Positions 16-27,388 of a stretch of 64,000 bases of DNA are shown in pieces. Every line of letters starts with the position of its first letter. Position 1 is the first letter of the stretch. The DNA is from Escherichia phage vB_EcoM_JNE01, in the sequence record OR670491. One strand, given 5' to 3'. Both the position numbers and the translations under genes were made by a program. Under the pieces are notes generated by a model. It did not search any database and was not told the DNA's origin. It was given only the letters and a program-made list of their open reading frames with translations.

Positions 16-750
16 GTGAATAATCGAATTTCAGAAAAAATGAAAAAACTAAATATCAATGAATATGAAATTGTAGAATATAACAGTACTAGGAGCATGG
101 TTGAATATACAGTTGATGATATTTCATATACAACTAGTTACGATAAGATTATGCATCCAACTTGGAAAGGTAATCCAAGATATACAAAAGAAAGAATAAT
201 AAAATTGTCGAAAAAATATTGCAAGGGTAAAAAATTTCAATTTAATAAAATAATTGGTAATGTTAAAGGAATTAATACTATCATTGAATTAGAACTTGAA
301 AATGGTATGTTTATATATCCAAAATTTATACAATTAAAAGGAGGTTCTGACTTTAATACATCCACTGATGGTAAGATTTTAACAGAAATAATTTATCCTT
401 TGTTCGACAATTATATCACACAAAAACGTTTTGAAAATTGTAGAAATCCTGAAACTGGATACTTGTTGCCATATGATTTGTATGTTCCAGAATTTAATTT
501 ATTATTAGAAAAAGATGGAGTGCAACATTACAATCCAACAGCATATTTTAATAAAACATATGAATCATATTTGAAATTGAGAGAGAGAGATGAATTTAAA
601 AACAAATATGCCATATCAAATGGTTATAATTTCATGCGAATAGCAGATTATGAAGATCATGAAAAAATATTGAAATCTTTCCTTAAACTCATTGAAGAGA
701 ATCCAGGAAAGCAAATCGTGCAGATCTATGGTGAAGTACAAATTATCTAA
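16..750 (+). CDS. hypothetical protein (frame open to window start; may be 5' partial)
   Basis: 244-aa ORF from GTG; no in-frame stop upstream to position 1; followed by terminator/promoter hairpin at 757-790. Confidence 0.5.
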   Translation: MNNRISEKMKKLNINEYEIVEYNSTRSMVEYTVDDISYTTSYDKIMHPTWKGNPRYTKERIIKLSKKYCKGKKFQFNKIIGNVKGINTIIELELENGMFIYPKFIQLKGGSDFNTSTDGKILTEIIYPLFDNYITQKRFENCRNPETGYLLPYDLYVPEFNLLLEKDGVQHYNPTAYFNKTYESYLKLRERDEFKNKYAISNGYNFMRIADYEDHEKILKSFLKLIEENPGKQIVQIYGEVQII

Positions 751-760
751 AACAAAAGGG

Positions 761-790
761 TTGACACTAGTCAGCCCTTTTTGCTATAAT
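761..790 (+). promoter_or_regulatory. sigma70-like promoter (TTGACA-18-TATAAT) with -35 inside an inverted repeat
   Basis: TTGACA 761-766, TATAAT 785-790; AGGGTTGAC/GTCAGCCCT dyad; same module recurs at 31033, 35061, 38336, 41086. Confidence 0.55.
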
Positions 791-818: not shown

Positions 819-1592
819 ATGACCCGTACAGAGAAAGCAATCCAAATCGAAAAGAACTTCAACAGCATGATGGCAGCTTTGGAATGTTTACTTGATACCC
901 AAGCTAATTCAATCAATTCCCTGATTGTATCTGGTAAAGGTGGTGTTGGTAAAACTTACAACGTTGACCAGCGTTTACAGAAAGCTGATGATAACTTTGA
1001 AATCGACTACAAAAAGATCAGCGGTAAAGTAACCACTATGGGTTTGTACGAAGCACTGTATCGTTCACGTCATGCCGCTTCAGTACTGTTACTTGATGAC
1101 GTTGATATCTTCAGTGATGAAACTAACATTGACTTGCTCAAAGCAGTGTTGGACACGTCGGAGAAGCGGGTTGTATCTTATGCAACTTCTGGTAAGTACC
1201 TGGAGCAGCAGGGTATTCCTAAGCAGTTTGAATTCCGTGGGAAGGTAATCTTCCTGACGAACAAAAACCTGTCACAGATTGCTAAAGGTAAAAGCAGTTT
1301 AGCACCACACATTGATGCACTGATTACTCGTAGTATCTTTGTTGACCTACAACTGTTCACCAACGAAGAAGTCATGATTCACATTGAGAACATCATGAAC
1401 AAGACTAACATTCTTGAGAACAATGGTGTTAATAAAAATGGTTGTAAAGCAATCCTGAACTGGATGCTGAACAACGAAGAAAACCTGCGTTCACCTTCAC
1501 TGCGTATGCCGTGCCTGATTGCTGGTTTGTACAACAAATTCCCGTATGATTGGGAATCAATGGCAGAAAACATGTTCCTGGAAAAGAACTAA
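819..1592 (+). CDS. P-loop NTPase (Walker A GKGGVGKT, Walker B LLLDDVD)
   Basis: 257-aa ORF, SD AGAGGA before ATG; Walker A/B motifs read directly in the translation. Confidence 0.7.
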   Translation: MTRTEKAIQIEKNFNSMMAALECLLDTQANSINSLIVSGKGGVGKTYNVDQRLQKADDNFEIDYKKISGKVTTMGLYEALYRSRHAASVLLLDDVDIFSDETNIDLLKAVLDTSEKRVVSYATSGKYLEQQGIPKQFEFRGKVIFLTNKNLSQIAKGKSSLAPHIDALITRSIFVDLQLFTNEEVMIHIENIMNKTNILENNGVNKNGCKAILNWMLNNEENLRSPSLRMPCLIAGLYNKFPYDWESMAENMFLEKN

Positions 1593-1595
1593 TAC

Positions 1596-1624
1596 TTGAC
1601 AGTACTACCAATGTACAGTACAAT
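1596..1624 (+). promoter_or_regulatory. sigma70-like promoter (TTGACA-17-TACAAT) for the membrane-protein array
   Basis: TTGACA 1596-1601, TACAAT 1619-1624, directly after stop of the ATPase gene. Confidence 0.5.
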
Positions 1625-1651: not shown

Positions 1652-1981
1652 ATGCAAGAATTTATAACACAAGATTGGGTACGAAGTTTGACATTCTTCT
1701 ATATGTTGGGGTTCGTATATTATCATGTACTGGTTGGTATACTATGGTACTTTAAGAAGCGAGCGTGTTTAACTCTGTATCCAGAATGGATGATTTTATT
1801 TTCTGTCGTACAAGGCGTTGGTGTGTTATTTGGGGCAATAACACATTGGGTGTATGTGACTGACCCTAGATTAATTTATATTGCACCTTACTTTGTATTT
1901 GGATTTGGTATCATATTTTTGTGCATGAGTGCAATATATGGTTTGGTAGTTTATCGTAGAAAAATTGTTGGCGATTTATAA
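1652..1981 (+). CDS. small multi-pass membrane protein (membrane family 1/8)
   Basis: start moved to ATG at 1652 with SD GAGGAAA; hydrophobic segments; WYFKKR motif. Confidence 0.6.
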   Translation: MQEFITQDWVRSLTFFYMLGFVYYHVLVGILWYFKKRACLTLYPEWMILFSVVQGVGVLFGAITHWVYVTDPRLIYIAPYFVFGFGIIFLCMSAIYGLVVYRRKIVGDL

Positions 1982-1993
1982 GGGGATACAAAG

Positions 1994-2344
1994 ATGGGTT
2001 CTGATTACATTGAGTTTATTTTGAATAGCGGCATTGTACAAACTATTTCTATGTGTATCTTTTATCTTTATATTTTTGTTTGTGCATTTTTCTTTATTGG
2101 ATGGTACTTTAAACGTCCTTACTACGAAGTATATGCATACAGTGAAGAACTAAGTATTGCTAATAATATCTTAGCGTACTGTAGTGTAGGAGCATTAATT
2201 ATTGCAGTTGCAAGTGATAAAGGCTTAAATGTTGCATTTGCATTCTCTTATGGTGTCTGTGCATTGCCAGCATTCATTTTCTTTGGTATTATATTAGTAC
2301 TGAAATACCTTAACAAACTACGTAACCACATTCCAGAGGCATAA
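1994..2344 (+). CDS. small multi-pass membrane protein (family 2/8)
   Basis: hydrophobic ORF, GWYFKRPY motif, basic C-tail. Confidence 0.6.
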   Translation: MGSDYIEFILNSGIVQTISMCIFYLYIFVCAFFFIGWYFKRPYYEVYAYSEELSIANNILAYCSVGALIIAVASDKGLNVAFAFSYGVCALPAFIFFGIILVLKYLNKLRNHIPEA

Positions 2345-2345
2345 T

Positions 2346-2684
2346 ATGGAGTACTTTCTGAGTTTATTACCAATGCACATTCTAATCGCTACAGGTTATT
2401 ATGTATTCTTTGCAGTATTCTTTTTCCTGATGTGGTTCTTCAAACGACCCATTTCAGTCGTGATTGACCGTAACTACTGGCCTCCTATGTTACACGTTTG
2501 GTACTGGTTTTCGTGCTTTATGTCTATTATTCACTACGCTTTGATTAGTACTGGTCAACGTTCAAATGGGGAAGGTATTTGTACTGTGTTTTTTATATTA
2601 GGAACAGCGGTATATATATTTCTTCTAGTAACACCACTGATTCAGAAGTTACGTTCTAAGATTCCTGACGTGAGAGGTCACTAA
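2346..2684 (+). CDS. small multi-pass membrane protein (family 3/8)
   Basis: hydrophobic ORF, MWFFKRP motif; 1-nt gap to previous gene. Confidence 0.6.
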   Translation: MEYFLSLLPMHILIATGYYVFFAVFFFLMWFFKRPISVVIDRNYWPPMLHVWYWFSCFMSIIHYALISTGQRSNGEGICTVFFILGTAVYIFLLVTPLIQKLRSKIPDVRGH

Positions 2685-2686
2685 CA

Positions 2687-2995
2687 ATGTTTGAATTTGT
2701 AATGTTTACAGTAATTTCATTTTACTTTTGTATTTGCTGGGTTGGATTTCTCTTTGCACTGAAATCTTTTATCTTCTTTGAGAAGCAAGCAAAAGAGTTT
2801 TGGTTCCCAATCGCAGTAGTGACAGTAACATCACTGATTTGGGTATGGAAATTGTCATATGGTACATATGATGACATTCAGGTAGCACAATTTCTTCTTG
2901 GCCCTTGTGTAGTTGTATTTGTAGTAAGTTCAATTCCACCATTGTGTCGTGCAGTGAAGTCGTTTCATATGAAACAAAAAGCTAAACGCAGATAA
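2687..2995 (+). CDS. small multi-pass membrane protein (family 4/8)
   Basis: hydrophobic ORF, FFEKQ motif shared with next gene, basic tail KQKAKRR. Confidence 0.6.
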   Translation: MFEFVMFTVISFYFCICWVGFLFALKSFIFFEKQAKEFWFPIAVVTVTSLIWVWKLSYGTYDDIQVAQFLLGPCVVVFVVSSIPPLCRAVKSFHMKQKAKRR

Positions 2996-3006
2996 AGGAT
3001 AATAAC

Positions 3007-3324
3007 ATGCAAATTGAATTGATTCTATTCATCATCTGTGCTGTGTACATGTTATCGTGTTGGGTTGGATACCTGTTCGCAATCCCTGTATTTGACTTTT
3101 TTGAGAAACAATGCAAGAATGGTTTTATATGGGCGTGGGGTGCAACATTCAACAGTGTAATATGGACAGTACTACTTATATTCCATCCTCCTGAAGATAT
3201 GTACGGTGTGAGGATAGTACTGGTTATGACGCTTATATTAGTTGGATTATCAGCCTGTGAAGCACTATACAAAGTATTCACTTCCGTTCGTTTGAAGTAC
3301 TTGAATAAGAGGAAAGATGTATGA
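3007..3324 (+). CDS. small multi-pass membrane protein (family 5/8)
   Basis: hydrophobic ORF, CWVGYLFA...FFEKQ motif. Confidence 0.6.
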   Translation: MQIELILFIICAVYMLSCWVGYLFAIPVFDFFEKQCKNGFIWAWGATFNSVIWTVLLIFHPPEDMYGVRIVLVMTLILVGLSACEALYKVFTSVRLKYLNKRKDV

Positions 3325-3698
3325 TTACATTTACATTAAATGCATTGACAGTAATTCTATGCTATAGTACACTAGTCTACATTGGTAAATTCTTTTGTGT
3401 AAGATTCTTTGAAGCACAATACGATGCAGCGGCTGAAGACGATATTGATAATGTTGCTATCAGTGCTATGTGTTATTGTTTTGGTTTATTCTTCACTGTA
3501 TGTGCATGGTTAACGTACTATTATGATTTTGGATACCTAGAGGGTGACAGATTCTTACTAGTGTTGTTATTGGTATTCGGTTCATTTTGTGTCGTGATAC
3601 ACTTTTTTATTCTTGTGTGTACTAGTGTAGTATATAAGTTAGTTCCGTTCTTTAAAGATTTGCACAGTAAAATCCGTGCTAAGAAGAGAGGTGAGTGA
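3321..3698 (+). CDS. small multi-pass membrane protein (family 6/8)
   Basis: hydrophobic ORF; ATGA start/stop overlap. Confidence 0.6.
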   Translation: MITFTLNALTVILCYSTLVYIGKFFCVRFFEAQYDAAAEDDIDNVAISAMCYCFGLFFTVCAWLTYYYDFGYLEGDRFLLVLLLVFGSFCVVIHFFILVCTSVVYKLVPFFKDLHSKIRAKKRGE

Positions 3699-4051
3699 TG
3701 TTATCATTTGCGGGTCAGATTATCGTCATGGGTATTACATTATTATTCACGGTGAATAGTATTATTTTACTCGGTAAGTACTTTAATATTCGTCCAATGA
3801 ATAAGTTGTACGATAAATTAAAAGAAGATAATCCATTCTATGTATTTTTATCTGTAGCAATTGGCATAGGTTTCGTTTTAGAAGTTATTGGTTTAATTGC
3901 ATCTGCACCAGTTGTGATTGTTTTTGGAATCTTTTCTGCTACATGTGGGTTATTATTATTTTCTTTAGGTTTAATACTCGACCTATCGATTAACATTGGT
4001 ATTAAACTTAAGAAGTTTCATGAAAAGCAACTTCAGAGGGACGTAAAATGA
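3695..4051 (+). CDS. small multi-pass membrane protein (family 7/8)
   Basis: hydrophobic ORF; ATGA overlap. Confidence 0.6.
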   Translation: MMLSFAGQIIVMGITLLFTVNSIILLGKYFNIRPMNKLYDKLKEDNPFYVFLSVAIGIGFVLEVIGLIASAPVVIVFGIFSATCGLLLFSLGLILDLSINIGIKLKKFHEKQLQRDVK

Positions 4052-4419
4052 CATACCGTGAGTACTTCCTAATTGTTCATATCTTATTTTTTACCGTATT
4101 TTCTGTTGTAGGGTTGATGTATTATTTTTGTATTCAACCAGTGTACAATTACTTCCAGAAGACTACTGACACAAAGGTTGTTGGTACAATTGCTGCAATC
4201 CTATTATATATGTTGAGTATCCTTCTTATAATTGGTGAAGTATTTTTTGATGGTATGCCAAATTCAGACGGTTTGCTTATTCATGAGTTTATAACTGGTT
4301 TATATTGTTTAGTTGGGTTTATTGCATTTGTGATTTTTACAGTGTACAGGATCTATAAATTTTTCATGTATCTTGGTGGACTACACGATTCTATTCGTCA
4401 GAAACGTATGGGGGAATAA
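4048..4419 (+). CDS. small multi-pass membrane protein (family 8/8)
   Basis: hydrophobic ORF; ATGA overlap; followed by terminator. Confidence 0.6.
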   Translation: MTYREYFLIVHILFFTVFSVVGLMYYFCIQPVYNYFQKTTDTKVVGTIAAILLYMLSILLIIGEVFFDGMPNSDGLLIHEFITGLYCLVGFIAFVIFTVYRIYKFFMYLGGLHDSIRQKRMGE

Positions 4420-4424
4420 AAAAA

Positions 4425-4460
4425 TACCCAGTACTGAAATATTGTACTGGGTATTTTAAT
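4425..4460 (+). terminator. rho-independent terminator
   Basis: ACCCAGTAC-loop-GTACTGGGT hairpin followed by T-run. Confidence 0.6.
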
Positions 4461-4465
4461 ATATT

Positions 4466-4819
4466 ATGAGATTCATTAAAGCGAGCTTGCAATCACAAAA
4501 GAAATGTCAAATTATAATTGAACACGATGGTTTGAAGATATCAGCATTTGATTTTGGAAGTACTAAACATTCTATTTGCTTTAATGATCCTGACAACGCA
4601 GTGTATTGTCTTATGATTAAAGTAAACTACTTACATAAACTTATAACAGAACCTGAATATTTTGTTCGTTTCAAAAACTTTAGTACAGAGAAACTACATG
4701 AGATATATAGAATTTCAATGATTGCATATACATTTTTGGGAATACCTGATGATGAACTTGATGTGACATTCCCTGGTGAAGCTAAAATACCTAAAGAATC
4801 ATTTTGGAAGGATTTATGA
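4466..4819 (+). CDS. hypothetical protein
   Basis: 117-aa ORF after terminator. Confidence 0.5.
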   Translation: MRFIKASLQSQKKCQIIIEHDGLKISAFDFGSTKHSICFNDPDNAVYCLMIKVNYLHKLITEPEYFVRFKNFSTEKLHEIYRISMIAYTFLGIPDDELDVTFPGEAKIPKESFWKDL

Positions 4820-5457
4820 AACACAGACTTAATAAGTTTTACACTGACTATTTCAAAGATGTAAATGCATTCTTTAAAAAATACAAGATGCATACTAAAA
4901 ATGCACAGAACAGACGAAACCCAGCATTTGCCAGACCAAGTAGAAATATTACTTCATGTACACCTACGTGCTCAACGAAAAAGATGTTAAGTGCCAAAGG
5001 TATAAAGATAGCTTATATTGAAGCATATAAAGATAATGCACGTTTGAATAGTACTGATGATATTAAATTCAGTTCTGTTAAAATGAAAATTGGTGATATT
5101 CAGTGTGAAATGGCTGTTGATTTGGAATACAATCTGGAAATCAGAATGTATGTAGCTCACGATAGTTCACGAAAAGTGGAATTAATGGGAATAACATCTT
5201 ATATTTGTAAAGATACAGATGGATTTGCATTGAAAACTTCAACGTTCAACGTTGATTCGGTAGATGATCTCGATGGTGCATTAAATCATCTGATGAGTTC
5301 TGAATGTACAGACGAACTAATGTTCCAGTACTCACTGTTGTATAAAGATATTGACCAGTACATTGAAATGTGCAAAGTACTACAACGTGTATATGATATG
5401 TACATGAAGACTGGAAAACTAACTGCATTTATTTTATATAACGCAGTAGAGGTATGA
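4816..5457 (+). CDS. FQ-S family protein (outlying member)
   Basis: ATG at 4816 with SD GGAAGGA; motif DELMFQYSLLYKD shared with the 48-64 kb array. Confidence 0.55.
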   Translation: MKHRLNKFYTDYFKDVNAFFKKYKMHTKNAQNRRNPAFARPSRNITSCTPTCSTKKMLSAKGIKIAYIEAYKDNARLNSTDDIKFSSVKMKIGDIQCEMAVDLEYNLEIRMYVAHDSSRKVELMGITSYICKDTDGFALKTSTFNVDSVDDLDGALNHLMSSECTDELMFQYSLLYKDIDQYIEMCKVLQRVYDMYMKTGKLTAFILYNAVEV

Positions 5458-5458
5458 T

Positions 5459-5668
5459 ATGGAAAAGTTTTATAGTTCACTACTTCTATCTACTGAACTT
5501 GTATCATTTATGGTGTGCAAGACTAAGAAAGATTATTACATTAATAATCCAAATCCTTTAAATGATATAGAGCTATCACTTAAATTTGTAAATTGTACTG
5601 AAAATATATTAAAGTACAACAATAAAGTTTATTTTAATGTATTGAAATTGATATTTGTATATAACTAA
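5459..5668 (+). CDS. YY-family small protein (outlying member)
   Basis: C-terminus VYFNVLKLIFVY matches the 17-21 kb family. Confidence 0.5.
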   Translation: MEKFYSSLLLSTELVSFMVCKTKKDYYINNPNPLNDIELSLKFVNCTENILKYNNKVYFNVLKLIFVYN

Positions 5669-5670
5669 AA

Positions 5671-5698
5671 AGCCAGTACAAAGTACTGGCTTTATTTT
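5671..5698. terminator. bidirectional terminator between convergent genes
   Basis: AGCCAGTAC-AA-AGTACTGGCT hairpin flanked by A/T runs. Confidence 0.6.
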
Positions 5699-6902
5699 AT
5701 ATACCACGACTGGGTATTTGATATAATTGGAATTTAGTGTAGTAATCAGAAACTGTTGTCCCGGCTGCTTGTGGGATATAGCCACTCAAATACACATCCC
5801 CTTGATTATCCATATACACTGTTGTACATTCACTTGAACAGAATAACTCGGTGTTAGATACTTTAGGAGCATCAACTGGTGTTACAAATGTAGTACTTGA
5901 TGTTGTATTACCGCGACCGAGCTTACCATACGTGTTTATACCACACATATAAAGTGAATCGGCAGTTTTAACCGTAAGCCCACCATATGTTAATGAATTT
6001 GATTTCATTTCCATATCATCTGATATTGGTAGAGTGGAGATAGTGGATAATACTGTCCAAGAATTAGCGGATGAACCATTACCCAAGTTACCATCGGACT
6101 GAATCCCACTTGCACGAACTGTATATGTATTATTCGTGTTGTGTTTATATACAACCCATGATGCACTCCCACCGAGTTCATAATGTATAACAGTATTGTT
6201 GGCGAATGCACCCATTTGTGTCCATACTCTAATGTTAGTTGCATTATTACTTATACCAAGCGAACCCCATGTGTTTTGACCAGTGACCCAAAGTGTTTTA
6301 TCAATTTTCTGCACAATCACTGCACTTGAACCTGTTTTAACACTATCAACATTCGTATTAATTGACGTAAAAGTTGATAATCTAGTGGTTGTGTTATTAC
6401 CAAAATATCCCTGTGTATTCGTCCCCATTCCATATAGCGTACCATTTTCAAGTAAAACAAAAATACCCTCACCTACAAGTTGAATGTCCTTAATTTGGGA
6501 CAATTGTGTAGCATTGAATACTGATGTAAAATATGAAGTACAATCAGTATAAGTACTGGCAGTACTTAAACCTGCACCAATAGCTTTACCAACCCCACTG
6601 TAATAAAATTTATTATCTTCAGTTTGGATTAAATTAAAAGTACCTTGGGCTGTTCTGAAACGTTTTACATTTTGGTATATTAAAGTCCATTCTTTTACTT
6701 TCGCATTATGTACACCATTCCCGAATCCATAGTTTTGTGAAGTAGTTCCACCTATACCCATTAAGTCTCCATTTTTATATAATAGTAAGAGTGCTGTTGC
6801 TGGAATTACTGACGCACTATAACCATTGTACATAAAGATTTCTTTCACTTCAGGAACTTTCATTTTATTAGCGTATTTAACCATTCTTGCAAAAGGTAAC
6901 AT
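5697..6902 (-). CDS. RCC1-like beta-propeller repeat protein (paralog 1/9)
   Basis: 401 aa; N-terminus MLPFARMVKYAN; Gly/Ser/Thr-rich with G-x-N-x-x-G-[QK]-LG repeats (e.g. INTYGKLGRGN). Confidence 0.7.
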   Translation of the reverse strand: MLPFARMVKYANKMKVPEVKEIFMYNGYSASVIPATALLLLYKNGDLMGIGGTTSQNYGFGNGVHNAKVKEWTLIYQNVKRFRTAQGTFNLIQTEDNKFYYSGVGKAIGAGLSTASTYTDCTSYFTSVFNATQLSQIKDIQLVGEGIFVLLENGTLYGMGTNTQGYFGNNTTTRLSTFTSINTNVDSVKTGSSAVIVQKIDKTLWVTGQNTWGSLGISNNATNIRVWTQMGAFANNTVIHYELGGSASWVVYKHNTNNTYTVRASGIQSDGNLGNGSSANSWTVLSTISTLPISDDMEMKSNSLTYGGLTVKTADSLYMCGINTYGKLGRGNTTSSTTFVTPVDAPKVSNTELFCSSECTTVYMDNQGDVYLSGYIPQAAGTTVSDYYTKFQLYQIPSRGI

Positions 6903-6907
6903 AAAAT

Positions 6908-6930
6908 CCTCCTTTATTCATTATACTATA
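6908..6930 (-). promoter_or_regulatory. conserved upstream motif TATAGTATAATGAATAAAGGAGG (candidate promoter -10 plus SD)
   Basis: near-identical copy upstream of every RCC1-like gene. Confidence 0.4.
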
Positions 6931-6934
6931 TTTA

Positions 6935-6968
6935 GCCAAAAAGGAAAAGCCAGTACTTGAGTACTGGC
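6935..6968 (-). terminator. rho-independent terminator
   Basis: GCCAGTACTCAAGTACTGGC hairpin plus T-run on minus strand. Confidence 0.6.
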
Positions 6969-6979
6969 ATTATAAAGAA

Positions 6980-8155
6980 TCAAATTGTAGGAAGTAGGAA
7001 TTCTTTCATAACAGATGAACTACTCGCACTGACATTATCTGGTGATTTCCCTGCGTAGTATAATTTATTATTAATGAACATATATAATGTTGCATCATTC
7101 CCTGCAACAAGAGAAACCTCTTTATTAAAAACAACACCACTAGGTAAAATTGCTTCAACGAATGAACCTGATTCGCGTGTGGTATTATTTGCTAATTGAC
7201 CATTGTTATTATAACCAGTACTATAAATTTTACCTGAACTATAATACACAAGCCCACGTGTACTAGTGTTTTCTATACGAAGGAATTCACTATCATCTGG
7301 AACTGAAGTTGATAAAGTTGCATTTAACTTATAAGCGGATGTTGTATTATTATTACCCAACTGACCATAACCTTGATATCCTAGTGTATACATAGGACAT
7401 GATTCTGGTGTACCTTTAGTTATAACACCAAAATAATTCGAACTACAAAAAGCGTCTATAACTTCTGTAACAGGTGTACCCTTATATTGAACCCAAGGGA
7501 ATACATATGATTGTTGTTTGCCATTCCCTAAAGTACCAGAGCTTGTTGTTCCGGTACGCCATATTGTATCATCAAGTTTAATAATCCAGTTAGCAGATGT
7601 TATAGATGAACAGAATTTTTTAACATTATCAATTAAGTATGTAAATTTATTATAATATGATGCAGTGTTTAGCCCAAACTTAGCACCAGTATTATCACCT
7701 AACAAATATAAACTATTATCAGTACCTAAAATGACAGCATAATCATAACCTACATATATCTCTTTTATTTTTGAAATACCAAATTGTGTAAAATAGCTTG
7801 TACATTCAGTGAATGTTGTTACTGTATTTGTTGTATTATTACCTAACCATTTATCAAAACCACTAAAAAAGAATCTATCATCATTTGTGCGTATTAGACA
7901 AAAAGCGTTCCCTGTACTACACCAGAAATCTTTAACATTGCTATATATTTTTGTCCATTCCTGTACCTGTGTCGTATTACCTAGACCAAAAATACCACCA
8001 TTTTGAAGACCGATGGCCCATACTGAACCATTTTTATCAAGTAGCATTGTAGTTGTAAATGAGTATCCAGATGATGGTGTAACCAATTTAACAAAATTTG
8101 GGATATATGGCACGACCTTATTTCCGTACTTAGCCATCCTTGCAAAAGGTAACAT
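6980..8155 (-). CDS. RCC1-like beta-propeller repeat protein (paralog 2/9)
   Basis: 391 aa; N-terminus MLPFARMAKYGN; motifs YQGYGQLGNNN, YNNNGQLANN. Confidence 0.7.
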   Translation of the reverse strand: MLPFARMAKYGNKVVPYIPNFVKLVTPSSGYSFTTTMLLDKNGSVWAIGLQNGGIFGLGNTTQVQEWTKIYSNVKDFWCSTGNAFCLIRTNDDRFFFSGFDKWLGNNTTNTVTTFTECTSYFTQFGISKIKEIYVGYDYAVILGTDNSLYLLGDNTGAKFGLNTASYYNKFTYLIDNVKKFCSSITSANWIIKLDDTIWRTGTTSSGTLGNGKQQSYVFPWVQYKGTPVTEVIDAFCSSNYFGVITKGTPESCPMYTLGYQGYGQLGNNNTTSAYKLNATLSTSVPDDSEFLRIENTSTRGLVYYSSGKIYSTGYNNNGQLANNTTRESGSFVEAILPSGVVFNKEVSLVAGNDATLYMFINNKLYYAGKSPDNVSASSSSVMKEFLLPTI

Positions 8156-8190: not shown

Positions 8191-8223
8191 CAAAAAAAGA
8201 AATGCCAGTACTGGAGTACTGGC
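8191..8223 (-). terminator. rho-independent terminator
   Basis: GCCAGTACTCCAGTACTGGC hairpin plus T-run. Confidence 0.6.
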
Positions 8224-27088: not shown

Positions 27089-27388
27089 ATGAAAGTTGCA
27101 ATCATCGCCCTGGCTTTATCTGTATCGTCTTTCGCTGTTAACGCTTCCGTTGATGTACCGCGTGAAAAATTCATTCAGTGCACTGTTGCAATGACTAACG
27201 AGGAAACGGCTGAGATTGTTACCAAATCCCTGGAACTGGCCCCTGCAATGTTTGCTAATGGCCCGTACCATGAAGAAGATGATCAGGGTAGCACGACCAT
27301 CTATTACGATGCAAAAAGTAAACGCGGTTCAGTTACTGTAATGGATACTGAGAAAGTTACATTCACGGGAGTAATTAATTGTTTTTAA
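27089..27388 (+). CDS. small secreted/periplasmic protein (Sec signal peptide)
   Basis: MKVAIIALALSVSSFAVNA/SVD: hydrophobic N-region with AxA cleavage motif. Confidence 0.65.
   Translation: MKVAIIALALSVSSFAVNASVDVPREKFIQCTVAMTNEETAEIVTKSLELAPAMFANGPYHEEDDQGSTTIYYDAKSKRGSVTVMDTEKVTFTGVINCF

What the first reader, a model, noticed from the sequence alone, without database searches (positions are those of the whole stretch)
1652..4419. Eight tandem paralogous small membrane proteins in one operon
Eight consecutive 100-140 aa ORFs are strongly hydrophobic with several predicted TM helices and short basic C-tails. They share motifs such as WYFKRP and FFEKQ and are linked by ATGA or 1-nt junctions behind a single promoter at 1596-1624. 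An expanded family of small membrane proteins in a phage suggests superinfection exclusion, membrane remodelling or a holin/antiholin-like function.
Basis: partly seen in the sequence, partly recalled or inferred. Interest (0 to 1): 0.5.

Follow-up and report, generated by a model that had tools for sequence, protein, structure and literature searches.

The report
Jumbo-phage operon of eight membrane paralogs
A giant E. coli phage carries one early operon of eight related, tiny three-pass inner-membrane proteins. The gene family is real, fast-evolving, found only in RaK2-like jumbo phages and of unknown function; it most likely acts at the host membrane in phage–phage or phage–host conflict.

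Summary
Positions 1652-4419 carry eight tightly packed + strand genes of 102-125 aa. Each has a Shine-Dalgarno site, three hydrophobic helices and a basic C-tail. A near-consensus sigma-70 promoter (1596-1624) lies upstream and a strong hairpin (4421-4457) downstream.

Profile-profile comparison links all eight into one old family of seven orthogroups; m4 and m5 are a recent duplicate. The window is an Asteriusvirus-like jumbo coliphage, closest to Turkey5.

The same array of 4-11 genes sits directly after the NrdC.10-like ATPase gene in every RaK2-like phage examined: 121Q/G17, A4, RaK2, GAP32, Serratia BF, Munch, Hallingskeid and two metagenome contigs. It is found nowhere else.

Orthologs are only 30-53% identical where the flanking ATPase is 96-99% identical, yet dN/dS is 0.1-0.5. 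Charge distribution predicts N-out/C-in topology. The TM2-loop-TM3 hairpin varies more than the N-terminal half and C-tail.

No homology or fold match gives a function. My best inference, about 0.35, is early inner-membrane gatekeepers that exclude other phages or counter defence. A holin role is disfavoured. The operon is real, uncharacterised and moderately interesting.

The parts
761..790 (+). Perfect sigma-70-type promoter (TTGACA-18-TATAAT with TG) upstream of the ATPase gene. No terminator lies between it and the array, so it can also drive the array.
819..1592 (+). NrdC.10-like P-loop ATPase (257 aa; phrog_1250, function unknown). It is the invariable upstream neighbour of the array in RaK2-like phages; a functional link is inferred only.
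   Evidence: synteny
1596..1624 (+). Array promoter TTGACA-17-TACAAT (11/12). It is identical in Turkey5, and a related TTGACAGTACTA... element sits at the same place in other Asteriusvirus genomes.
1652..1981 (+). m1, 109 aa, orthogroup A (WYFKKR after TM1; C-tail YRRKIVGDL).
   Evidence: (phrog_19454)
1994..2344 (+). m2, 116 aa, orthogroup B (GWYFKRP; C-tail KLRNHIPEA).
   Evidence: (phrog_19046)
2346..2684 (+). m3, 112 aa, orthogroup C (MWFFKRP; C-tail KLRSKIPD). It is the best-conserved member. The AF2 model has pLDDT 86.
   Evidence: (phrog_27396)
2687..2995 (+). m4, 102 aa, orthogroup D (WVGFLFALK..FFEKQ; C-tail FHMKQKAKRR).
   Evidence: (phrog_33258)
3007..3324 (+). m5, 105 aa, second copy of orthogroup D. 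This is a lineage-specific duplicate of m4 (Smith-Waterman z = 19).
3321..3698 (+). m6, 125 aa, orthogroup E (IGKFFCV; C-tail LHSKIRAKKRGE). Its start overlaps the m5 stop (ATGA).
   Evidence: (phrog_26405)
3698..4051 (+). m7, 117 aa from the ATG at 3698 (a GTG at 3695 is possible), orthogroup F (LGKYFNIRP; C-tail FHEKQLQR).
4048..4419 (+). m8, 123 aa, orthogroup G (YYFCIQPVY; C-tail LHDSIRQKRMGE). The AF2 model has pLDDT 74.
   Evidence: (phrog_27618)
4421..4457 (+). Terminator-like hairpin: a 14-bp stem containing CCAGTAC/GTACTGG, running into a T-rich tract.

Best explanation
SHOWN. The eight ORFs are real genes of one anciently diverged protein family. Each product is about 100-125 aa with three membrane-spanning helices, a short helix after TM1 and a basic C-terminal extension. 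The lysine/arginine distribution places the N-terminus and the TM2-TM3 loop outside (periplasm) and the TM1-TM2 loop and C-tail inside (cytoplasm). The genes are packed for coupled translation. They are transcribed from host-type sigma-70 promoters and end at a hairpin. The family exists only in RaK2-like jumbo phages, always directly downstream of the NrdC.10-like ATPase gene. It evolves by rapid divergence, recombination and occasional duplication or loss, under overall purifying selection.

INFERRED. The proteins are made early by host RNA polymerase and inserted into the host inner membrane. There they act as a battery of small membrane gatekeepers. The better-conserved N-terminal half (N-terminus, TM1, the juxtamembrane motif W[YF]FK[RK]P or GK[FY]F) and the C-tail motif ([LF][RH]xK[IL]..KR or LRxKIP[DE]) provide insertion, topology or a common cytoplasmic contact. 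The fast-evolving TM2-periplasmic loop-TM3 hairpin provides specificity. The most likely role is membrane-level conflict: blocking genome entry by competing phages (superinfection exclusion) and/or neutralising membrane-acting host defences. Timing of lysis is less likely.
For: Gene reality:
- All eight have Shine-Dalgarno sites, and Turkey5 annotates the same eight genes.
- dN/dS is 0.09-0.47 in every orthogroup among four related phages. It is at most 0.66, on few substitutions, against Turkey5.

One family:
- Smith-Waterman against shuffles, PHROG cross-hits and hhalign links support it: A-B 86%, B-C 97%, B-D 91%, B-F 84%, E-F 90%, E-G 93%. Reversed controls stay below 2%.

Topology:
- Three hydrophobic windows per protein. 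Loop1 plus C-tail hold 4-11 K/R, against 0-2 in the N-terminus plus loop2.
- The AF2 models of m3 and m8 share one plan.
- The GAP32 depositors report 3 TMDs by TMHMM/Phobius for the syntenic genes GAP32_522-527.

Early expression:
- The 11/12 promoter belongs to a class of 19 exact sites, all on the + strand, against 0.37 expected.

Restriction to the clade:
- 44 phage records, all Asteriusvirus or Alcyoneusvirus, by tblastn.
- 14 and 5 clusters in the 5.8-billion-protein index.
- 17 representatives among 1.84 billion for the B/C profile.
- HMM-detectable homologs in GAP32, Serratia BF, Munch and Hallingskeid.

Conflict-like evolution:
- Orthologs are 30-53% identical where the adjacent ATPase is 96-99% identical (WPEC3, ph0011, UE-S1).
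- The array DNA matches only Turkey5 at megablast level.
- dS is mosaic along the array.
- Copy number ranges from 4 to about 11, with lineage-specific duplicates.
- Among diverged orthologs, TM2/loop2/TM3 are 19-23% identical, against 33-36% for the N-terminus, TM1, loop1 and C-tail.
Against: - No sequence or fold similarity to any protein of known function, including exclusion proteins and defence-system or holin models.
- Gene-wide dN/dS is below 1. Site-wise positive selection was not tested.
- Seven orthogroups keep the same order across genera. That fits non-redundant, cooperating parts (a complex) better than a freely turning-over arsenal.
- The whole neighbourhood of the genome is mosaic, so divergence here is not unique.
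- The variable TM2-TM3 hairpin could simply be under weak constraint.
- Relatives carry genes that depositors label 'superinfection immunity protein' (Hallingskeid) and 'protein spackle' (fEgEco12; ortholog at window 27089-27382). Exclusion may therefore already be covered, although I could not confirm those labels.
- Timing of expression is inferred from promoter sequence only.
Confidence: 0.35

Rival explanations
1. Host-takeover modulators. Each small protein binds and inhibits or redirects a host inner-membrane protein (a transporter, the divisome, a protease such as FtsH, Sec/YidC or a sensor kinase). This would resemble bacterial small membrane regulators and early 'host-takeover' genes of other large phages, and would reshape cell physiology for a long jumbo-phage cycle.
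For: - Early host-type promoter.
- Small three-pass inner-membrane proteins.
- Several non-redundant orthogroups retained across genera.
- Conserved polar residues inside helices within orthogroups, such as YH in TM1 of group A and IHY in TM2 of group C, suggest specific intramembrane contacts.
Against: - Host inner-membrane targets are highly conserved among E. coli, Salmonella and Klebsiella. That does not predict 30-50% identity between orthologs of near-identical phages infecting the same species.
- No homology to any known modulator.
Confidence: 0.2
2. Subunits of one hetero-oligomeric inner-membrane assembly (a ring or channel built from paralogs) that works with the NrdC.10-like P-loop ATPase encoded immediately upstream.
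For: - The ATPase gene directly precedes the array in every RaK2-like phage examined.
- In Serratia BF, GAP32 and Hallingskeid the ATPase stop and the first array start are separated by one base (TAATATG). In L012 and L014 they overlap or abut.
- Orthogroup order is conserved.
- Translational coupling runs through the array.
- The loop after TM1 and the C-tail, both predicted cytoplasmic, carry conserved motifs that could dock a cytoplasmic partner.
Against: - The ATPase is common in T4-like phages (about 1300 records) without any such array. The genes downstream of T4 nrdC.10 are unrelated.
- Array size varies from 4 (Munch) to about 11 (Hallingskeid), which does not fit a fixed stoichiometry.
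- Insertions between the ATPase gene and the array, or within the array, are tolerated: RaK2 ORF308, an endonuclease V fragment in A4, and a 254-266 aa soluble protein in GAP32 and BF.
- Recombination occurs inside the array.
- The link rests on synteny among related phages only.
Confidence: 0.15
3. Lysis control: holins, pinholins or antiholins that set lysis timing for the phage's signal-anchor-release type endolysin.
For: - Size (102-125 aa), three TM helices, N-out/C-in topology and a charged basic C-tail are the textbook features of class I holins such as lambda S (established knowledge; topology).
- RaK2-like phages are reported to have an endolysin with an N-terminal TM domain (PMC5259590), and such endolysins need a membrane-depolarising partner.
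Against: - Early host-type promoter, not a late one.
- No endolysin or spanin gene in the flanks: the neighbours are an ATPase, unknown genes and RCC1-like genes.
- No hit to any Pfam, NCBIfam or PHROG holin family.
- Eight copies of a lethal function expressed early is unprecedented.
- A relative (fEgEco12) is reported to have a separately annotated holin (PMC13070987).
Confidence: 0.1
4. Non-functional or spurious ORFs: hydrophobic reading frames produced by T-rich DNA.
For: The region has a strong negative AT skew, and hydrophobic ORFs can arise in T-rich sequence.
Against: - Purifying selection in every gene.
- Orthologs are retained as intact ORFs of the same length across genera that share about 50% ATPase identity.
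- Motifs are conserved.
- Shine-Dalgarno sites and coupled junctions are present.
- The AF2 model of m3 is confident.
Confidence: 0.02

Closest known systems
Syntenic 'membrane protein' genes of other RaK2-like jumbo phages: GAP32_522-527, Serratia phage BF gp389-384, RaK2 ORF309-316, 121Q gp224-232, Munch 529-533
   Same: They occupy the same place, directly after the NrdC.10-like ATPase gene. They have the same size (100-130 aa) and three TM helices. The juxtamembrane and C-tail motifs are the same or related. They are detectable with the orthogroup HMMs.
   Different: They are only 20-50% identical to the window's proteins, and copy number differs (4 to about 11). All are annotated only as hypothetical or membrane proteins. 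No function or family-level description was found in the papers searched.
PHROG families 19454, 19046, 27396, 33258, 26405, 27618 (all 'unknown function')
   Same: Seven of the eight proteins match one of these with E from 1e-11 to 1e-35.
   Different: PHROGs splits them into six unrelated-looking families. Here they are shown to be one superfamily. m7 has only a weak hit (5e-4).
Class I holins (for example lambda S105)
   Same: About 105 aa, three TM helices, N-out/C-in, and a highly charged basic cytoplasmic C-tail.
   Different: No sequence-family match, an early-type promoter, no linked endolysin or spanin, eight paralogs in a row, and conserved cytoplasmic motifs not known from holins.
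T4 Imm and other inner-membrane superinfection-exclusion proteins (P22 SieA, HK97 gp15)
   Same: Small phage-encoded inner-membrane proteins made early (T4 Imm) or from a prophage, which act on incoming phage DNA. They are fast-evolving accessory genes. This comparison rests on established knowledge.
   Different: No homology. Those are single genes, not a conserved seven-orthogroup array. An exclusion function was not tested here.

Membership tests
RaK2-like jumbo-phage NrdC.10-linked three-TM array (operational family defined here) | Position directly downstream of the NrdC.10-like ATPase gene, same strand, tightly packed | tested here: met
   Seen in the window and in Turkey5, UE-S1, Sharanji, G17/121Q, WPEC3, A4, ph0011, RaK2, GAP32, BF, Munch, Hallingskeid and metagenome contigs L012 and L014.
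RaK2-like jumbo-phage NrdC.10-linked three-TM array (operational family defined here) | 100-130 aa, three TM helices, with W[YF]FK[RK]P or GK[FY]F after TM1 and a basic C-tail carrying [LF][RH]xK[IL] or LRxKIP[DE] | tested here: met
RaK2-like jumbo-phage NrdC.10-linked three-TM array (operational family defined here) | Detectable common ancestry of all members | tested here: met
   hhalign gives a chain of links at 84-97% probability, with reversed controls below 2%. The orthogroup HMMs detect the distant arrays.
PHROGs 19454/19046/27396/33258/26405/27618 | Significant HMM match | tested here: met
   E from 1.7e-11 to 9e-35 for m1-m6 and m8; m7 is weak at 5e-4.
Class I holins | Small protein with three TM helices, N-out/C-in, and a charged C-terminal tail | tested here: met
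   Hydropathy, K/R distribution and AF2 models.
Class I holins | Membership of a described holin sequence family | tested here: not met
   No Pfam, NCBIfam or PHROG holin hit at E<=0.1-1.
Class I holins | Late expression and/or linkage to endolysin and spanin genes | tested here: not met
   The promoter is a sigma-70 consensus type. The neighbours are an ATPase, unknown genes and RCC1-like genes. Timing is inferred from sequence only.
Class I holins | Triggered hole formation that collapses membrane potential and releases or activates endolysin | not testable with these tools
   Needs expression and lysis assays.
T4 Imm-type superinfection immunity proteins | Sequence match to the Imm family | tested here: not met
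   No Pfam, NCBIfam or PHROG hit. The Imm-annotated protein of Hallingskeid has no match in the window.
T4 Imm-type superinfection immunity proteins | Blocks DNA entry of a superinfecting phage | not testable with these tools
   Needs plating and DNA-injection assays.
Known anti-phage defence system components (PADLOC) | HMM match | tested here: not met
   No hit for any of the eight proteins.

The most novel reading that the evidence does not exclude
The paralogs are subunits of a phage-built hetero-oligomeric inner-membrane machine that is coupled to the NrdC.10-like P-loop ATPase encoded just upstream. This would be a jumbo-phage-specific ATP-driven membrane device, for example one controlling passage of DNA or ions across the host inner membrane, with no counterpart among known phage or bacterial systems.
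Probability: 0.12. Interest if true: 0.8.

Novelty: new variant of a known kind. Interest (0 to 1): 0.42.

Why it matters
Jumbo phages of the RaK2/121Q group are being developed for therapy, yet more than 80% of their genes have no known function. This work turns eight 'hypothetical proteins' into one defined family with clear properties: it is clade-specific and membrane-embedded, its predicted topology is N-out/C-in, its motifs are conserved, its genomic address is fixed next to an ATPase gene, and its evolution is unusually fast and mosaic.

If the proteins are exclusion or counter-defence factors, they would help explain which related phages can co-infect or displace each other, and which hosts are permissive. 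If they form a complex with the ATPase, they would be a new kind of phage membrane machine. In either case the array is a compact, cloneable target for experiments.

Tried and rejected
- Pfam, NCBIfam and PADLOC scans of all eight proteins gave nothing above noise.
- Foldseek of the m3 model against the PDB found nothing (E 8.9). Against BFVD it found only its own ortholog and a weak hit to a phage CBB membrane protein.
- The degenerate-pattern locus search with the B/C alignment failed because no stretch was conserved enough.
- The word-indexed protein searches returned few proteins (14 and 5). The exhaustive HMM search returned only 17, all the same kind of about 110-aa protein. No bacterial or functionally annotated relatives appeared.
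- I tested whether the T4 genes downstream of nrdC.10 (nrdC.9 to nrdC.6) are related. They are not.
tblastn found none.
- I looked for further paralogs in the 64 kb window and found none.
- A recalled T4 Sp sequence and the Imm-annotated protein of Hallingskeid have no significant match in the window.
- Literature searches on Asteriusvirus, RaK2, GAP32, CBB, phAPEC6, Sharanji, fEgEco12 and nrdC.10 found no description of this array.
- The ATPase has no PDB sequence match and only weak AAA_16, Orc1/Cdc6 and Hda-like hits.
Full report
WHAT THE WINDOW IS. Megablast places the first 7 kb in Asteriusvirus-like jumbo coliphages of about 350 kb. The closest is Escherichia phage Turkey5 (97.5% identity), which annotates eight 'hypothetical proteins' at the same positions.

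OBSERVATION. Eight + strand ORFs fill 1652-4419:
- m1 1652-1981
- m2 1994-2344
- m3 2346-2684
- m4 2687-2995
- m5 3007-3324
- m6 3321-3698
- m7 3698-4051 (a GTG at 3695 is possible)
- m8 4048-4419

They encode 102-125 aa with GRAVY 0.77-0.96. Each has a GGAG-like site 5-11 nt upstream. The junctions are ATGA overlaps (m5/m6, m7/m8), TGATG (m6/m7), 1-2 nt (m2/m3, m3/m4) or 11-12 nt (m1/m2, m4/m5).

The promoter TTGACA-17-TACAAT at 1596-1624 scores 11/12. It is one of 19 exact TTGACA-N16-18-TAYAAT sites in the window, all on the + strand, against 0.37 expected. A perfect promoter at 761-790 precedes the upstream ATPase gene, and no terminator separates that gene from the array. A 14-bp hairpin at 4421-4457 (-20 kcal/mol, z -5.4) closes the unit.

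ARE THEY PARALOGS? Smith-Waterman scores against 200 shuffles give z = 19 for m4-m5, 7.6 for m2-m3, 7.0 for m6-m7, 5.6 for m6-m8 and 4.3 for m7-m8. Links between these groups are only weak. PHROGs places the proteins in six different families of unknown function, with weak cross-hits.

I collected orthologs from UE-S1, G17 (121Q type), WPEC3, ph0011, A4 and RaK2 and defined seven orthogroups: A = m1, B = m2, C = m3, D = m4 and m5, E = m6, F = m7, G = m8. I then compared their profiles with hhalign. The links are A-B 86%, B-C 97%, B-D 91% (95 columns), B-F 84%, E-F 90% and E-G 93% (108 columns). With the target columns reversed, every pair fell below 2%, with a maximum score of 18 against 37-59 for the real links. 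The eight proteins are therefore one family, mostly very old paralogs; m4/m5 is a younger duplicate. No other member lies in the 64 kb window.

STRUCTURE AND TOPOLOGY.
- Each protein has three 19-residue hydrophobic windows.
- The TM1-TM2 loop plus the C-tail hold 4-11 Lys/Arg, while the N-terminus plus the TM2-TM3 loop hold 0-2. The positive-inside rule then gives N-out/C-in.
- The AlphaFold2 model of m3 (22-sequence alignment; pLDDT 85.8, pTM 0.68) has helices 2-31, 35-42, 45-68 and 75-104.
- The m8 model (10 sequences; pLDDT 74, pTM 0.52) has helices 3-26, 30-38, 43-67 and 73-120. Both show the same plan: TM1, a short helix, TM2, then TM3 running into a cytoplasmic extension.
- The GAP32 depositors independently note '3 transmembrane domains shown using TMHMM 2.0 and Phobius' for the syntenic genes.

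DISTRIBUTION AND SYNTENY. tblastn with m8 or a group-A protein finds 44-45 phage records. All are Asteriusvirus (Escherichia, Salmonella) or Alcyoneusvirus (Klebsiella), apart from one sub-threshold partial match in Erwinia phage Hallingskeid (E = 0.1). Profile searches of 5.8 billion clustered proteins returned 14 (B/C) and 5 (E-G) clusters. An exhaustive HMM scan of 1.84 billion representatives with the B/C profile returned 17, all 101-118 aa with the same motifs.

The upstream gene (819-1592) is a homolog of T4 nrdC.10, a P-loop ATPase of unknown function (phrog_1250) present in about 1300 phage records. In every RaK2-like phage I opened, this ATPase gene is followed at once by an array of about 100-130-aa hydrophobic genes:
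- RaK2 ORF309-316
- 121Q/G17 gp224-232
- A4 and WPEC3 (7 genes each)
- GAP32_522-527
- Serratia BF gp389-384
- Munch 529-533 (4 genes)
- Hallingskeid (about 10 genes)
- a 324-kb metagenomic phage contig, L014 (9-11 genes), and a short contig, L012

The orthogroup HMMs detect the distant arrays; for example Hallingskeid F 8e-19 and E 4.5e-16, Munch E 2.7e-13, GAP32 B 9e-7 and BF B 5e-7. In BF, GAP32 and Hallingskeid the ATPase stop and the first array start form TAATATG. In Asteriusvirus there is a 60-70-nt spacer with a conserved TTGACAGTACTA... promoter-like element. In T4 itself the genes after nrdC.10 are unrelated. Relatives also carry one or two further B/C-type genes about 6 kb upstream (G17 145-832; Turkey5 L001 188-538). 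That position lies outside this window.

EVOLUTION. Against WPEC3, ph0011 and UE-S1 the ATPase is 96-99% identical in protein, but the array orthologs are only 30-51% identical. That is about the same as against Klebsiella phage RaK2 (27-40%). At DNA level the array matches only Turkey5. Megablast similarity to other Asteriusvirus genomes stops near position 1790 and resumes at about 5667.

There are at least three deeply diverged array haplotypes within the genus: this window with Turkey5, the 121Q-like type and the A4 type. The ATPase itself has two allelic types that assort independently of the array haplotype. Within the 121Q-like type, dS varies from 0.04 to 2.7 between adjacent genes, which indicates recombination inside the array. 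dN/dS is 0.09-0.47 in all groups and 0-0.66, on few changes, against Turkey5. The genes are therefore under purifying selection and are real.

Duplicates are lineage-specific: D here, A in the 121Q type, B in RaK2 and E/F in L014. There are five A/B/C-type genes in Hallingskeid. Among diverged orthologs, mean pairwise identity is 0.33-0.36 for the N-terminus, TM1, loop1 and C-tail, but 0.19-0.23 for TM2, loop2 and TM3. The strictly conserved residues are W[YF]FK[RK]P or GK[FY]F at the cytoplasmic end of TM1, and [LF][RH]xK[IL]..KR or LRxKIP[DE] in the C-tail. The surrounding genome is itself mosaic, so the plasticity is regional. Even so, the array genes are retained as diverged orthologs rather than replaced.

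FUNCTION. Nothing gives a function by homology:
- Pfam, NCBIfam and PADLOC are empty.
- The PHROG families are 'unknown'.
- The papers I could search on these phages do not describe the array.

What can be inferred is this. The proteins are made early, from host-type promoters. They sit in the inner membrane N-out/C-in and are co-produced. They belong to an accessory, clade-specific family that diverges and recombines fast and gains and loses copies. I therefore rank a membrane-level conflict role (superinfection exclusion and/or neutralising membrane-acting defence) first, at about 0.35.

The rivals are ranked as follows:
- Modulators of host inner-membrane proteins: 0.2. The conserved hosts do not predict such divergence.
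- A hetero-oligomeric assembly coupled to the ATPase: 0.15. The conserved ATPase-array junction, the fixed orthogroup order and the conserved cytoplasmic motifs favour it. The variable copy number, the tolerated insertions and the presence of the ATPase alone in T4-like phages argue against it.
- Holin or antiholin: 0.1. The shape matches class I holins, but the promoter type, gene context, copy number and lack of any family match argue against it.
- Spurious ORFs are excluded.

COMPARISON AND NOVELTY. By sequence the proteins are members of six PHROGs of unknown function and of the unnamed set of 'membrane protein' genes annotated in GAP32, BF and RaK2. They fail the membership tests for holin families and for T4 Imm.

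Three points are new here. First, these genes form one superfamily. Second, they form a conserved seven-orthogroup array tied to the nrdC.10-like gene across RaK2-like jumbo phages. Third, the family shows a defined predicted topology, conserved motifs near the cytoplasmic ends of TM1 and TM3, and hypervariable, mosaic evolution.

I rate the finding as a new variant of a known kind (small phage inner-membrane accessory proteins), with interest 0.42. It is real and well delimited, and it gives a compact experimental target. However, the function is inferred, and nothing yet shows a mechanism outside known categories.

Noticed in passing
whole window (1-64000): The octamer TATAAATA (the T4 late-promoter -10 motif) is completely absent from both strands. 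12.8 +/- 4.0 copies are expected from dinucleotide-preserving shuffles. This is strong, unexplained avoidance.
   Followed up: no
window 761, 1596, 17015, 21708, 23539, 24897, 31612, 32197, 33309, 34347, 35296, 35636, 35905, 36336, 38764, 39255, 40780, 49607, 56469: There are 19 exact TTGACA-N16-18-TAYAAT promoters, all on the + strand, against 0.37 expected. Many share the spacer end AGTACTG before TATAAT or have GTACT just after the -35 element. This suggests a phage-specific extended promoter or a binding site.
   Followed up: partly
window 4428-4450, 5673-5689, 6950-6967, 8205-8222, 9621-9638, 14621-14637: A hairpin family CCAGTAC-loop-GTACTGG recurs six times, against 0 expected; at least three copies (4428, 5673, 6950) sit just past gene ends. 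These are probably the phage's standard, bidirectional terminators. They share the AGTACT core with the promoters.
   Followed up: partly
window 5697-8155 and onward on the - strand (to about 21000): A run of paralogous RCC1-like beta-propeller genes of about 390-400 aa lies on the opposite strand, directly downstream of the array. The same neighbourhood is seen in relatives, where the genes are annotated 'regulator of chromosome condensation' or 'DNA condensation protein'.
   Followed up: no
window 16-750: An HNH/homing-endonuclease-like gene (phrog_559, phrog_9084) lies just upstream of the ATPase gene. Relatives have different endonuclease or other insertions at this spot (Turkey5 has about 3.4 kb extra), which marks an insertion hot spot.
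   Followed up: partly
window 819-1592 compared with L008, L010, L011: The NrdC.10-like ATPase exists in two deeply diverged allelic types within Asteriusvirus (about 59% against 96-99% protein identity). The types assort independently of the array haplotype, which is evidence of mosaic recombination.
   Followed up: partly
window 27089-27382 (+): This gene is the ortholog (80% aa identity) of the fEgEco12 gene annotated 'protein spackle', a small secreted protein. Pfam and NCBIfam do not support that label.
   Followed up: partly
L006 (G17) 145-832; L001 (Turkey5) 188-538; outside the window: One or two additional B/C-type family members (WFFK-like motif, C-terminal LRxNxP) lie about 6 kb upstream of the main array in relatives. 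The phage of this window therefore probably has more than eight members.
   Followed up: partly
L020 (GAP32) 6964-7728; L019 (Serratia BF) 6618-7418: In GAP32 and BF a 254-266 aa soluble protein of unknown function is inserted inside the membrane-gene array, after the first or second gene.
   Followed up: no
window 4466-5668 (+): Three non-membrane genes (117, 214 and 69 aa; the 214-aa one is phrog_34359, function unknown) lie between the array terminator and the RCC1-like genes. They belong to the same block that matches only Turkey5 at DNA level.
   Followed up: no
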